A stretch of DNA of 38,324 nt from a virus (taxonomy: Duplodnaviria; Heunggongvirae; Uroviricota; Caudoviricetes): IMG/VR virus record IMGVR_UViG_2718218135_000002, positions 1 through 38,324 of that record; one strand, 5' to 3'. The position numbers were made by a program. The first letter of the stretch is position 1. Each line of letters begins with the position of its first letter. This document shows positions 27,001-30,000 of this stretch, in pieces.

Positions 27001-30000
27001 ACGTTCTTCAGCGTGGATAAAGACGGCTTTCTTGCCACAAATGGCAGTACGTTAACCATTCAGTCAAATGGGGCGGCGTTTACTGCCACAACCATCAAAA
27101 TCATTGCGGAGCAGTGATGATTCAGTTCAAACCAACGCGAAACATCGACCTGATCGAAGCAGTAGGAAATCACCCTGACATTATCGCCGGGAGCAACAAC
27201 GGTGATGGATACGACTACAAACCTGATTGCCGTTACTTTGAGGTGAACGTGCACGGGCAGTTCGGCGGCATTGTTTACTATCAGGAGATTCAGCCGCTGA
27301 CATTCGATTGCCACGCCATGTACCTGCCAGAGATTCGCGGCTTCAGCAAGGAAATCGGGCTGGCGTTCTGGCGATACATTCTGACTAACACCACCGTTCA
27401 GTGCATCACATCGTTCGCTGCACGCAAATTCCGCCACGGGCAGATGTACTGCGCAATGATTGGCCTTAAGCGTGTAGGAACCATCAAGAAATACTTCAAA
27501 GGCGTGGATGACGTGACTTTTTACAGCGCCACACGCGAAGAACTAATCGACTTCCTGAATCACGGGAGATAGCCATGTTATATGCATTTAAGCTGGGCAG
27601 AAAACTGCGCGGCGAGGAACCTTATTGCCCTGAAAAAGGCGGGAAAGGTGGCAGTTCTGATAAAAGCGCAAAGTATGCAGCAGAAGCTCAGAAGTATGCT
27701 GCAGATCTGCAAAATCAGCAGTGGCAGACGATCATGAAAAACCTTGCTCCGTTCACGCCTCTTGCGGAGCAGTATGTTAACCAGCTTCAGAACCTTTCCA
27801 GTTTAGAAGGTCAGGGGCAGGCACTTAATCAGTATTACAACTCTCAGCAGTATAAAGACCTTGCAGGGCAGGCGCGTTACCAGAGTCTTGCTGCTGCGGA
27901 GGCGACGGGTGGACTTGGTTCGACAGCCACAAGCAATCAACTGGCTACGATCGCGCCGACACTCGGTCAGTCTTGGTTATCAAATCAGATGAGCAATTAC
28001 AACAATCTGGCAAACGTTGGGCTTGGTGCGCTGCAAGGTCAGGCAAATGCCGGGCAGACGTACGCCAACAACATGAGCAGCATTGCACAGCAAAGCGCAG
28101 CTCTTGCCGCTGCTAATGCCAATAAACCATCAAGTCTTCAGACTGCAATTAGCGGTGGCACGTCTGGTGCGATTACCGGTGCAGGTCTTGCCAGCCTTTT
28201 GGGAACATCAACACCTTGGGGCGCTGGAATTGGTGCTGGTATCGGATTGCTTGGCTCGTTGTTTTAAGGGGTAATCATGGCTACTTGGCAAGGATCAAAT
28301 GGCGGATTGTTAGCTGGTATCGGCGGCGTCAACTCAAACGCTCCAAGCGTAAATGACATCGGCAATACGCTTCAGCTTATCAGGCAGAACAATGATATTG
28401 AGCGTTCAGGCGCTAACAATGTTGGGCTGACTGCTTTGCAAGGTCTTTCAGGTATTGCGGGTGTTTTTCAGCAGGAAAAGCAGGCTCAGCGGCAGAAAGA
28501 ATTTCAGCAGGCGTACGCTAATGCTTATGCGTCTGGTGATCGCGGTGCTTTGCGTCAGTTGGCTACTCAATATCCAGACCAGATTGAATCCGTTCGTAAA
28601 GGCATGGGATTCATTGATGAAGAGCAGCGCAATTCTATCGGCACCTTAGCGGCTGGCGCACGCCTTGCGTCATCCTCTCCAGAAGCAATGCAATCATGGC
28701 TGCAAAACAACGCCGGTGAGTTAGCTCGTGTTGGCGTTAATCCTCATGACGTCGCTCAGATGTACCAACAGAACCCGCGGCAGTTCGGCGAATTTGTCGA
28801 TCACCTGGGGATGAACAGTCTCGGGCCCGAAAAATACTTTGACCTACAGGATAAAATGCAGGGTCGCCAGGTTACCATGCGCGGTCAGGATCTGGATTCG
28901 CAAACCGCCGCTCGGAATCAGGCAATCACAATGCGCGGACAAGATATCCAGGCGAATTTAGGTCAGCAGCGCATTAATCTGGACGCAGAAACAAACCGCA
29001 TTAACAACGAAAATAAGCGCCTTGACCGGATGCTATCAGCAGAAACTAACGACCTGAAGCGCCAGGAAATACAGAGCCGCATAGCAGCCAACAACCAGCA
29101 GTTGCAGCAGAAGCAGCAAGCGCTAAATGATGGCTACAAAGACGGCATCAACACCCTCACAACCAGCATGTTCACTCTGAACGATATCGTTAGTTCTCCT
29201 TCACTTAAGAGCATTACAGGCTTACGTGGAGTAATCCCCAACGTTCCAGGCTCACAGGCTGCAGACACTCAGGCACGACTTGATACCTTTAAATCACAAG
29301 CATACCTGACAGCGGTTCAGGCCATGCGAGGCATGGGCGCACTTTCTGATGCCGAGGGCAAAAAGCTCGACCAGGCTGTTGGTTCGCTGCAGAACTCGCA
29401 GAGCGAGGAGTCCTTTCGTCGCAACGCTGGCGTCATCCTGAACACGCTCAACCAGAAGCGTAATGAGGCGGTTGGTAAGTACGTTCAGCAAAACGGTATC
29501 AAGCGAGTGGAAGCGCCTCAGGCTTCTATAGATTACCTGAAGCAGCACCCCGAGCTGTCAATCGACTTCATTAATCGCTACGGATATCTTCCATCTTTGG
29601 GGCAGTAAATGGCTAATTACCGTGATTTGTTAGAGCAGGCTGGCGCACGTTACGGTGTGCCAGAAGGGTTGATGACTGCACTGGGTGCCAAGGAGTCTTC
29701 TTACAACCCTGCCGCAGTAAGCTCCGCCGGGGCTGTAGGATTGACTCAGGTCATGCCTGGGACATGGCGTGATATGGGTTATACCGATGAGCAAATGCAA
29801 AACCCCGAATATCAGGCTGACGCTGGCGCGCGCTATCTGGCAAAGATGTACCAGCAGTTTGGTAACTGGCGTGACGCTCTTCAGGCTTATCACGACGGTC
29901 CCGGCAACGTTATGAAGGCAAAGCGTGGTGAATATACGCCAGGACCTGAAGGCCGCGGTTACGTTGATGATCGCTTTGCTCAATGGGCGGGTGACCCGGT

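What the first reader, a model, noticed from the sequence alone, without database searches (positions are those of the whole stretch)
29609..30000. Ejection protein carrying an N-terminal lytic transglycosylase domain
The gp16-position protein is 797 aa. Its first about 120 residues show the three family-1 lytic transglycosylase motifs (catalytic Glu in AKESSYNP, then GAVGLTQVMP, then AYHDGPGNV). This would give the injected internal protein a peptidoglycan-cleaving activity for crossing the cell wall, as in T7 gp16, fused to a P22-like ejection protein body.
Basis: partly seen in the sequence, partly recalled or inferred. Interest (0 to 1): 0.45.

Follow-up and report, generated by a model that had tools for sequence, protein, structure and literature searches.

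The report
Cell-wall-cutting domain on phage ejection protein
An Sf6-like prophage of E. coli carries a well-supported cell-wall-cutting (lytic transglycosylase) domain on the front of one of its injected proteins; this is a real minority variant among P22-like phages, already labelled in public databases but never tested.

Summary
ORF 29609-32002 (+) encodes 797 aa. Residues 7-110 match Pfam SLT (E 2.8e-25), and the catalytic Glu-Ser, GLxQ, AYxxG and ExxxY motifs align to E. coli Slt70. An AlphaFold model (pLDDT 88) matches Slt70 best. Residues 208-797 are 97% identical to residues 76-665 of Sf6 gp13, which has no SLT domain.

The fusion is not the standard Sf6-like form:
- 51 of 347 E. coli genomes that carry this gene type have the full fused gene.
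- 19 of the 80 closest IMG/VR loci have it.
- Sf101 carries the same module on a different body.
- A 58-65% identical SLT sits in the same position in at least 15 virulent phages (21 records: Lumpael, Skarpretter, Sortsne, C130_2, Kc259 and others).

Databases already name it a transglycosylase. I found no paper that discusses it, and a 2022 review says P22-like phages lack this domain.

The new result is that the SLT travels in a roughly 1.7-kb low-diversity cassette. The cassette also replaces the C-terminal two-thirds of the upstream gp20 homologue, and linkage is complete (66 versus 66 E. coli genomes).

Most likely function: an injected enzyme that opens peptidoglycan for the gp20 channel, as T7 gp16 does. 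Activity is inferred, not shown. Interest is low to moderate.

The parts
29609..32002 (+). Gene in the P22 gene-16 / Sf6 gene-13 position, 797 aa: SLT domain, linker and ejection-protein body
   Evidence: ORF list; Pfam SLT and phrog_770; 99.2% identical to an unannotated ORF of phage IME10
29609..29992 (+). Lytic transglycosylase (SLT, Slt70-like) domain, residues 1-128. Catalytic Glu29 is at 29693-29695, GLTQ at 29738-29749 and AYHDG at 29885-29899
   Evidence: Pfam PF01464 E 2.8e-25 over residues 7-110. Slt70 alignment puts E478 opposite E29. E29, S30, G44, Q47, Y94 and G97 are invariant in 115 aligned sequences. AF2 pLDDT 88. Foldseek best match is Slt70 1qte, TM 0.75. Among 23 copies there are 9 synonymous and 0 non-synonymous variable codons.
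29993..30229 (+). Low-complexity Gln/Pro-rich linker, residues 129-207, with two copies of DPNNPFAQ(L/I)E. The NPFAQ codons are at 30065-30079 and 30137-30151
   Evidence: Sequence. The degenerate pattern for NPFAQ occurs only twice in the window, with 0.01 expected. The copies differ at 5 of 15 bases, all synonymous. Related N(P/V/I)F(D/A)QF motifs flank the SLT in Lumpael, Skarpretter, Sortsne and Kc259. The model is disordered here.
30230..32002 (+). Ejection-protein body, residues 208-797, equivalent to Sf6 gp13 residues 76-665
   Evidence: tblastn 97.3% identity to Sf6 gene 13; alignment A1; phrog_770 'DNA transfer protein'
28277..29608 (+). P22 gp20 / Sf6 gp12 homologue, 443 aa. Its C-terminal tail (...QASIDYLKQHPELSIDFINRYGYLPSLGQ, about 29516-29605) is always found together with the SLT module
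   Evidence: Pfam Inj_translocase E 1.1e-67. All 20 SLT-bearing loci with a readable upstream ORF have this tail and all roughly 55 SLT-less loci end in SNFSSLWGD. In E. coli genomes 66 full-length tail matches and 66 full-length SLT matches lie at adjacent coordinates.
28715..30340 (+). Mosaic cassette of about 1.6-1.7 kb: gp20 codons about 147-443 plus gp16 codons 1 to about 245. It is diverged from Sf6 and nearly invariant among SLT-bearing phages
   Evidence: Identity to Sf6 falls from at least 95% to 0-70% only in this interval. Nucleotide diversity among 19 SLT-bearing loci is about 0.02 or less here (mostly 0.006 or less), against 0.02-0.13 in the flanks.
27575..28267 (+). P22 gp7 homologue, the first ejection protein of the operon (context)
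   Evidence: Pfam P22_gp7 E 1.6e-134

Best explanation
The gene encodes the third ejection (internal virion) protein of an Sf6-like prophage. Its first 128 residues form an active Slt70-type lytic transglycosylase. The likely sequence of events is as follows. The protein is packaged in the head and expelled through the tail at infection, probably ahead of or together with the gp20 homologue. In the periplasm the N-terminal domain refolds and cuts glycan strands of peptidoglycan around the entry site. This makes room for the dodecameric gp20 periplasmic tube. The flexible linker then lets the body assemble at the foot of that tube and form the cytoplasmic-membrane channel. As with T7 gp16, the activity is probably conditionally useful (for example with dense or highly cross-linked wall) rather than essential, because closely related phages do without it. 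Shown here: the domain identity, intact catalytic motifs, purifying selection, the fusion architecture and its distribution. Inferred: packaging, ejection, enzyme activity and timing.
For: Domain: Pfam SLT E 2.8e-25. Slt70 alignment has all four motifs and E478 opposite E29. The catalytic residues are invariant across 115 aligned sequences. The model is confident and best matches Slt70, Slt, MltC and MltE. The domain is homologous to the T7 gp16 N-terminal domain. Selection: among 23 copies the folded domain has 9 synonymous and 0 non-synonymous variable codons. The same motifs are kept at 58-65% identity in Lumpael, Skarpretter, Sortsne, C130_2 and Kc259. Ejection-protein identity: the body is 97% identical to Sf6 gp13, hits phrog_770, and has P22-type synteny gp10-gp26-gp14-gp7-gp20-[this gene]-tailspike. 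Not a lysis enzyme: a separate holin, endolysin and Rz cassette lies at 15536-16753. Not an artefact: the uninterrupted gene occurs in 51 complete E. coli genomes, several phage isolates and 19 IMG/VR contigs. Mechanistic context from papers: the T7 gp16 N-terminal transglycosylase is needed with highly cross-linked peptidoglycan (PMC8954989). In P22 the gp20 barrel crosses the peptidoglycan, and gp16 forms the cytoplasmic-membrane channel, is probably ejected before gp20 and diffuses as a monomer in the periplasm (bioRxiv 10.64898/2026.09.03.749273).
Against: No enzymatic, proteomic or genetic data exist for this protein or any close relative in the papers I could search. Motif III reads AYHDG instead of the usual AYNxG. 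Asn is at least 90% conserved among the aligned homologues, although His-Asp is conserved throughout this phage clade. Sf6, P22 and about 85% of E. coli prophages with this gene type infect without the domain, so it cannot be essential. P22 is reported to carry muralytic activity in gp4 (PMC5380687), and a gp4 homologue is present here at 24380-24841, so the SLT could be redundant. The N-terminal part could be processed off, as the first 20 residues of P22 gp7 are.
Confidence: 0.7

Rival explanations
1. The domain is kept as a peptidoglycan-binding or structural module that anchors or positions gp16 at the cell wall or at the foot of the gp20 tube. Glycan cleavage would not be its role.
For: Motif III is atypical: AYHDG, with Asn replaced by His at a position at least 90% conserved among homologues. 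The module is always inherited together with the gp20 C-terminal region, which would fit a docking role.
Against: The catalytic Glu-Ser, GLxQ and ExxxY motifs are all intact and are conserved across phages 58-65% identical in this domain. A purely binding module would not need the general acid.
Confidence: 0.1
2. The SLT part is not delivered into the cell. It would be cleaved off before or during assembly, or it would act inside the producing cell, for example helping lysis or assembly.
For: P22 gp7 is N-terminally processed (annotation). There are no virion proteomics for this protein.
Against: The phage has its own holin, endolysin and Rz genes. The domain has no signal sequence and sits on a protein whose body is 97% identical to Sf6 gp13, the counterpart of P22 gp16, whose ejection has been shown. 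The analogous T7 domain is delivered and acts in the periplasm.
Confidence: 0.07
3. The long ORF is an artefact: a frameshift, misassembly or false start joins a separate SLT gene to gene 16.
For: The IME10 records do not annotate the gene at all. The homologous gene is split into small CDSs in the Sortsne RefSeq record.
Against: The same uninterrupted 2394-base frame occurs in 51 complete E. coli genomes, 19 IMG/VR contigs and independent phage isolates. The start codon abuts the gp20 stop codon. The Sortsne frame is in fact open for 1015 codons.
Confidence: 0.01

Closest known systems
T7 gp16 (internal virion protein D) N-terminal lytic transglycosylase domain
   Same: The SLT-type domain sits at the extreme N-terminus of the largest ejection protein of a short-tailed phage. 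It is encoded after the two smaller ejection proteins and is homologous at domain level (28% identity, pairwise E 1e-10, catalytic Glu aligned; phrog_342 E 2.3e-23). The expected role is the same: local peptidoglycan cleavage during DNA entry.
   Different: The rest of the protein is unrelated: 797 aa against 1318 aa, with no similarity beyond about residue 190. The SLT here is closer to Slt70 and to the Lumpael/Skarpretter clade than to T7. P22-like ejection proteins are not stacked as a core in the head (PMC8954989).
Sf6 gp13 / P22 gp16 ejection (DNA transfer) proteins
   Same: The body (residues 208-797) is 97.3% identical to Sf6 gp13 residues 76-665. The gene position and the neighbours are the same.
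   Different: Sf6 gp13 (665 aa) and P22 gp16 (609 aa) have no SLT domain. Their first 52-75 residues are replaced here by 207 residues, and the C-terminal two-thirds of the upstream gp20 homologue is replaced as well.
gp16-position 'transglycosylase / DNA transfer' proteins of virulent P22-like-tailed phages (Murrayvirus Lumpael, Skarprettervirus, Sortsnevirus, Hungariovirus C130_2, Kosakonia Kc259, Klebsiella IME279)
   Same: The architecture is the same: SLT, then an NxF(D/A)QF motif, then a low-complexity linker, then a phrog_770 body. The SLT is 58-65% identical, including the clade-specific AYHDGPGN and PGPEGRxYVD strings. The gp20 tail is similar, of the YL..P....F..KYG(Y/F)LPEG type, in Lumpael, Skarpretter and Sortsne.
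   Different: Those proteins are 977-1038 aa with about 30 extra N-terminal residues that carry a first MAN(P/V/I)FDQFD motif, and their bodies are different. They belong to virulent phages, whereas this one is a temperate Sf6-like prophage.
Sf101 gp13 (911 aa; GenBank 'transglycosylase')
   Same: Residues 1-206 are identical or nearly so (99.5% at the DNA level), and the gp20 homologue is 98% identical.
   Different: After residue 206 the body starts like P22 gp16 rather than Sf6 gp13. This shows that the module has been joined to at least two body types.

Membership tests
Family 1 (Slt70-like, GH23, Pfam PF01464) lytic transglycosylases | Significant match to the SLT profile above the curated threshold | tested here: met
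   88.6 bits against a cut-off of 21.3, E 2.8e-25, residues 7-110
Family 1 (Slt70-like, GH23, Pfam PF01464) lytic transglycosylases | Catalytic Glu followed by Ser (motif I) and the GLxQ motif (motif II) | tested here: met
   E29-S30 align to Slt70 E478-S479, and GLTQ aligns to GLMQ. E29, S30, G44 and Q47 are invariant in 115 aligned sequences.
Family 1 (Slt70-like, GH23, Pfam PF01464) lytic transglycosylases | AYNxG motif (motif III) and the downstream E-x-x-x-Y motif | tested here: inconclusive
   Y94 and G97 are invariant, but the motif reads AYHDG, with Asn replaced by His at a position at least 90% conserved. PEGRGYV matches the ETRGYV of Slt70. His-Asp is conserved in the whole phage clade.
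Family 1 (Slt70-like, GH23, Pfam PF01464) lytic transglycosylases | Lysozyme-like alpha-helical fold | tested here: met
   AF2 model pLDDT 88.2. The top Foldseek matches are Slt70 1qte (TM 0.75, 32% identity), P. aeruginosa Slt, MltC, MltE and MltF.
Family 1 (Slt70-like, GH23, Pfam PF01464) lytic transglycosylases | Cleaves the MurNAc-GlcNAc bond with formation of 1,6-anhydroMurNAc | not testable with these tools
   This needs a zymogram and muropeptide analysis of the purified domain.
P22 gp16 / Sf6 gp13 ejection proteins (phrog_770) | Sequence homology over the body of the protein | tested here: met
   phrog_770 E 3.6e-240 over residues 108-797; 97.3% identity to Sf6 gp13; 35% identity to P22 gp16 over residues 314-786
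P22 gp16 / Sf6 gp13 ejection proteins (phrog_770) | Gene position: directly after the gp7 and gp20 homologues and before the tailspike region | tested here: met
   Pfam P22_gp7 at 27575-28267, Inj_translocase at 28277-29608 and Head_binding tailspike at 32426-34267
P22 gp16 / Sf6 gp13 ejection proteins (phrog_770) | Packaged in the virion and ejected into the host at infection | not testable with these tools
   Inferred from near-identity of the body to Sf6 gp13, the counterpart of P22 gp16. P22 gp16 ejection is shown in the literature.
T7 gp16 family (internal virion protein D) | N-terminal lytic transglycosylase domain | tested here: met
   28% identity over 130 residues, pairwise E 1e-10; phrog_342 E 2.3e-23 over residues 3-189
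T7 gp16 family (internal virion protein D) | Homology of the roughly 1100-residue remainder (the 'molecular tape' and the C-terminal cytoplasmic hub) | tested here: not met
   There is no match beyond about residue 190 in phrog_342 or in the pairwise comparison. It works like T7 gp16 at the N-terminus but is not a member of that family.

The most novel reading that the evidence does not exclude
The SLT domain is cargo in a general 'slot' at the N-terminus of gp16-family proteins. The slot is bounded by short conserved N-P-F-(D/A)-Q-(F/L/I) motifs. The whole gp20 C-terminal part plus the gp16 N-terminal part is a co-adapted interface cassette. The paired gp20 tail types and gp16 N-terminus types would then report a physical contact: the gp20 extreme C-terminus binding the gp16 N-terminal region at the foot of the periplasmic tube, as AlphaFold3 hinted for P22. 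That contact would hold the enzyme next to the channel. Other phages would load different cargo in the same slot, such as the unknown roughly 110-residue insert in Aeromonas phage 4_4512.
Probability: 0.25. Interest if true: 0.5.

Novelty: already known. Interest (0 to 1): 0.3.

Why it matters
How P22-like phages pass the peptidoglycan layer is unsettled. A 2022 review states that the gp16 transglycosylase is absent from P22-like phages (PMC8954989), and the only reported P22 muralytic protein, gp4, sits in the neck (PMC5380687). This prophage and its relatives show that a sizeable minority of P22-like phages do carry a T7-style enzyme on gp16. Natural pairs whose gp16 bodies are 97% identical, with and without the domain, make a ready-made test of what the enzyme contributes. 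The complete linkage of the domain to one form of the gp20 C-terminus gives comparative support to the proposed gp20-C/gp16-N contact in the new in situ P22 channel model. It also points to the residues to mutate. The domain fusion itself is ordinary, is correctly named in RefSeq and belongs to a known kind.

Tried and rejected
1. The single-sequence AlphaFold run of residues 1-210 gave pLDDT 58 and was not used. It was replaced by a run with a 115-sequence alignment.

2. I first supposed that the gp20 tail motif is specifically coupled to the SLT domain. I rejected this in that strict form. Shewanella phage ZP9 and Aeromonas phage 4_4512 have the same tail type but no SLT in the downstream protein. 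The tail goes with the 'MAN...' NPF-motif type of gp16 N-terminus, not with SLT as such. Simple physical linkage of adjacent DNA also cannot be excluded.

3. I considered that the LacY-like gene at 1-1248 might be phage cargo and rejected it. It is the host oligosaccharide MFS transporter flanking the prophage. The 'phage' records that contain it are induced-prophage assemblies with host flanks.

4. Casjens and Thuman-Commike 2011, the most likely place for an earlier description of gp16 types, is not in the held library. Prior description there cannot be ruled out.

5. The word-index protein search with residues 1-210 returned mostly fragments and generic bacterial SLT proteins. It was useful only as an alignment source.

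6. The unknown insert of Aeromonas phage 4_4512 gave no Pfam match at E 0.01 or better and no PDB sequence match at E 1 or better; the only PHROG hit lies outside the insert.

7. The opposite-strand ORF 29630-29983 (117 aa) lies wholly inside the SLT coding region. I treated it as a shadow ORF and did not pursue it.
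Full report
**What is there**

The window is an E. coli chromosome segment holding an Sf6-like (P22-like) prophage.
- The left end is a host oligosaccharide MFS transporter gene at 1-1248.
- The right end is an IntS-type integrase at 37167-38324, next to gtrA, gtrB and a GtrII-type gene.
- The late operon reads gp4 (24380-24841), gp10 (24851-26269), a needle with an Sf6-type knob (26269-27117), gp14 (27114-27572), gp7 (27575-28267), gp20 (28277-29608), the gene under study (29609-32002), an Arc/Mnt-like repressor on the minus strand (32092-32385) and the tailspike (32426-34267).
- The gene under study starts with ATG directly after the TAA of the gp20 homologue and encodes 797 aa.

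- Pfam SLT (PF01464) matches residues 7-110 at E 2.8e-25, 88.6 bits against a cut-off of 21.3.
- A search of solved structures puts E. coli Slt70 first, at E 4.5e-10. In that alignment:
  - Glu29-Ser30 lie opposite the catalytic Glu478-Ser479.
  - GLTQVMPGT lies opposite GLMQIMPGT.
  - AYHDGPGNV lies opposite AYNAGPGRV.
  - PEGRGYV resembles the ETRGYV motif of Slt70, which lies just beyond the aligned stretch.
- In an alignment with 114 homologues, E29, S30, A42, G44, Q47, Y94 and G97 are invariant.
- An AlphaFold2 model built on that alignment has mean pLDDT 88.2 and is ordered over residues 1-128. Its best Foldseek matches are Slt70 (1qte, TM 0.75, 32% identity), P. aeruginosa Slt, MltC, MltE and MltF.
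- One departure: motif III has His95-Asp96 where at least 90% of homologues have Asn-Ala. The same His-Asp is kept in all related phage proteins.

**The rest of the protein**

- Residues 129-207 are a Gln/Pro-rich stretch that the model leaves disordered. It contains two copies of DPNNPFAQ(L/I)E.
- The NPFAQ codons (30065-30079 and 30137-30151) are the only two matches to that degenerate pattern in the window, with 0.01 expected. They differ at 5 of 15 bases, all synonymous. The repeat is therefore kept at the peptide level and is not a fresh DNA duplication.
- Residues 208-797 are 97.3% identical to residues 76-665 of Sf6 gp13. The whole stretch 108-797 hits phrog_770 'DNA transfer protein' at E 3.6e-240.
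- Sf6 gp13 (665 aa) has no SLT match in Pfam or NCBIfam.

**How common is the fusion?**

It is not the standard form in Sf6-like phages.
- In 5,426 complete E. coli genomes, 347 have a match to the gene. Only 51 have at least 80% of it, and 69 have the first 618 bases (66 of them at full length, 66 of the 69 at 99% identity or better).
- Of the 80 IMG/VR loci closest to the body, 19 encode the 797-aa form and 53 encode the 665-aa SLT-less form.
- In the phage collection the module occurs in IME10, phiKp_30, Sf101, Dewey, Huey, APC_JM3.2 and a fragment.
- In Sf101 the same 206 residues are joined to a body that begins like P22 gp16. The module has therefore been combined with at least two body types.
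- A 58-65% identical SLT sits in the same gene position in 21 records of virulent phages with P22-type tail genes. These include Lumpael, sortregn, ST231, KMB41, IME_EC2, sortsyn, IME279, sortkaff, Sortsne, Kc237, Skarpretter, Kc259, STP9, C130_2 and Kc166B.
- For scale, 168 phage records have a gp20-type N-terminal domain.

**Selection and history**

- Among 23 copies, the module has 17 variable codons, 14 synonymous and 3 non-synonymous. All three amino-acid changes are in the linker.
- The folded domain has 9 synonymous changes and none that alter the protein. That is the pattern expected for a working domain.
- Mean pairwise nucleotide distance is 0.0025 in the module against 0.036 in the body of the same genes. 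The module is therefore much younger than, or moves independently of, the bodies it sits on.

**The cassette (new here)**

- Against Sf6, identity is at least 95% on both sides and collapses only between about 28715 and 30340. That interval covers gp20 codons about 147-443 plus gp16 codons 1 to about 245.
- Among 19 SLT-bearing loci the same interval has nucleotide diversity of about 0.02 or less (mostly 0.006 or less), against 0.02-0.13 in the flanks.
- All 20 SLT-bearing loci with a readable upstream gene (19 IMG/VR loci plus Sf101) have a gp20 that ends ...QASIDYLKQHPELSIDFINRYGYLPSLGQ. All roughly 55 SLT-less loci end in ...SNFSSLWGD. This holds even where the preceding gp20 sequence is P22-like.
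- In the E. coli genomes the tail DNA is found in 68 genomes (66 at full length), at coordinates adjacent to the SLT module. In the phage collection it occurs in the same phages as the module.
- Distant phages show the same pairing. Lumpael, Sortsne and Skarpretter have tails of the type YL..NP....F..KYG(Y/F)LPEG, followed by gp16 proteins that start MAN(I/V)FDQFD and carry a second NVFDQFG motif after the SLT.
- The tail is not tied to the SLT itself. Shewanella phage ZP9 and Aeromonas phage 4_4512 have the tail and the MANPFDQFD motifs but no SLT. In 4_4512 an unrelated insert of about 110 residues lies between the two motif copies.
- P22 has a third pair: tail ...GIKFTVE with gp16 N-terminus MKVTANGKTF.
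- My reading is that the gp20 tail and the gp16 N-terminal region come in matched sets, and the SLT is an optional insert in one of those sets. Adjacent DNA is linked anyway, so co-adaptation is an inference and not a result.

**Mechanism**

- T7 gp16 carries a homologous domain: 28% identity, pairwise E 1e-10, catalytic Glu aligned. That domain sits in the periplasm beside the gp15 tube and is needed when peptidoglycan is highly cross-linked (PMC8954989).
- A 2026 preprint describes in situ structures of infecting P22 (bioRxiv 10.64898/2026.09.03.749273):
  - A gp20 dodecamer forms a tube that crosses the peptidoglycan and ends in a 'plinth' on the cytoplasmic membrane.
  - gp16 forms the membrane channel, probably leaves the virion before gp20 and diffuses as a monomer in the periplasm.
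  - AlphaFold3 places the extreme C-terminus of gp20 against gp16 residues 1-205.
- An SLT on the N-terminus of such a protein is in the right compartment at the right time to open the wall for the gp20 tube.
- The linkage found here is what a gp20-C/gp16-N contact would predict.
- The phage has its own holin, endolysin and Rz genes at 15536-16753, so a lysis role is unnecessary.
- Because Sf6, P22 and most relatives lack the domain, it is probably an accessory advantage rather than a requirement. P22 gp4, reported as muralytic (PMC5380687), has a homologue here.

**Comparison with what is known, and novelty**

- The domain is a member of the Slt70-like family, with activity untested and motif III atypical.
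- The protein is a member of the P22 gp16 / Sf6 gp13 family.
- It works like T7 gp16 at its N-terminus but is not a member of that family, because the remainder is unrelated.
- Near-identical proteins are already in public databases and are named 'transglycosylase' (Sf101, GenBank) or 'lytic transglycosylase domain-containing protein' (RefSeq). The fusion is therefore already known as an annotation.
- I found no paper in the held library that discusses it. [quoted passage not shown]
- The Casjens and Thuman-Commike 2011 survey could not be read.

**Verdict**

The finding is real and correctly interpreted. The fusion is a minority variant rather than the norm, it belongs to a known kind and it is already annotated. 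What adds modest value is the cassette structure, the complete linkage with the gp20 C-terminus, and the conserved NPF(D/A)Q motifs around the insertion slot. I score interest at 0.3.

Noticed in passing
L004:1285-3282 and L006:1222-3219 (E. coli MB07011 and ET450); also Salmonella phage VSe13, L002:3276-5273: RefSeq/PGAP and GenBank name some 665-aa SLT-less Sf6-type gp16 proteins 'lytic transglycosylase domain-containing protein'. Pfam finds no SLT in them. The name seems to have been carried over from the fused relatives. Other identical-length copies are called 'hypothetical protein' or 'P22-gp16 family phage DNA ejection protein'.
   Followed up: yes
IME10 records JN600960.1, JF974339.1 and NC_019501.1; Sortsne L095:3501-6548: The 797-aa gene is not annotated at all in the three IME10 records. 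In the Sortsne RefSeq record the homologous gene is split into small CDSs, although a single 1015-codon frame is open.
   Followed up: partly
L091:5093-7591 (Aeromonas phage 4_4512, gp16-position protein, residues about 25-125): An unknown insert of about 110 residues (…GNIDIHNRPIVRNKDGSISTVRS…) sits between two NPFDQFD motifs, in the same slot where other phages carry the SLT. It has no Pfam match and no PDB sequence match, and the only PHROG hit lies outside the insert.
   Followed up: partly
window 30065-30079 and 30137-30151: The two NPFAQ motif copies differ at 5 of 15 bases, all synonymous. The peptide repeat is therefore conserved by selection and is not a recent duplication. Related N(P/V/I)F(D/A)QF motifs occur at the N-terminus and after the SLT in distant phages. 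Their function is unknown.
   Followed up: partly
L039 and L040 (IMG/VR): Two loci encode a 759-aa SLT-less variant of the Sf6-type gp16, about 94 residues longer than the usual 665 aa. I did not examine them.
   Followed up: no
window 1-2800 and 37167-38324: The window is a prophage with host flank. An oligosaccharide MFS transporter gene lies at 1-1248, a TorI-type excisionase region is near the left end, and the IntS-type integrase is at the far right end next to the gtr genes, as in the Sf6/KplE1 layout. Several 'phage' records that contain the transporter gene are induced prophages with host DNA attached.
   Followed up: yes
window 34314-37017 (minus strand): This is a low-GC (about 0.34) O-antigen modification cluster: a GtrII-type glucosyltransferase (475 aa), gtrB (306 aa) and gtrA (120 aa), between the tailspike and the integrase. 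The tailspike (613 aa) has the P22 head-binding domain joined to a receptor-binding part that matches only a PHROG of unknown function.
   Followed up: no
window 32092-32385 (minus strand): A 97-aa protein with an Arc-like N-terminal domain and an Mnt C-terminal motif lies between gene 16 and the tailspike. It is the remnant of an immI-type region.
   Followed up: no
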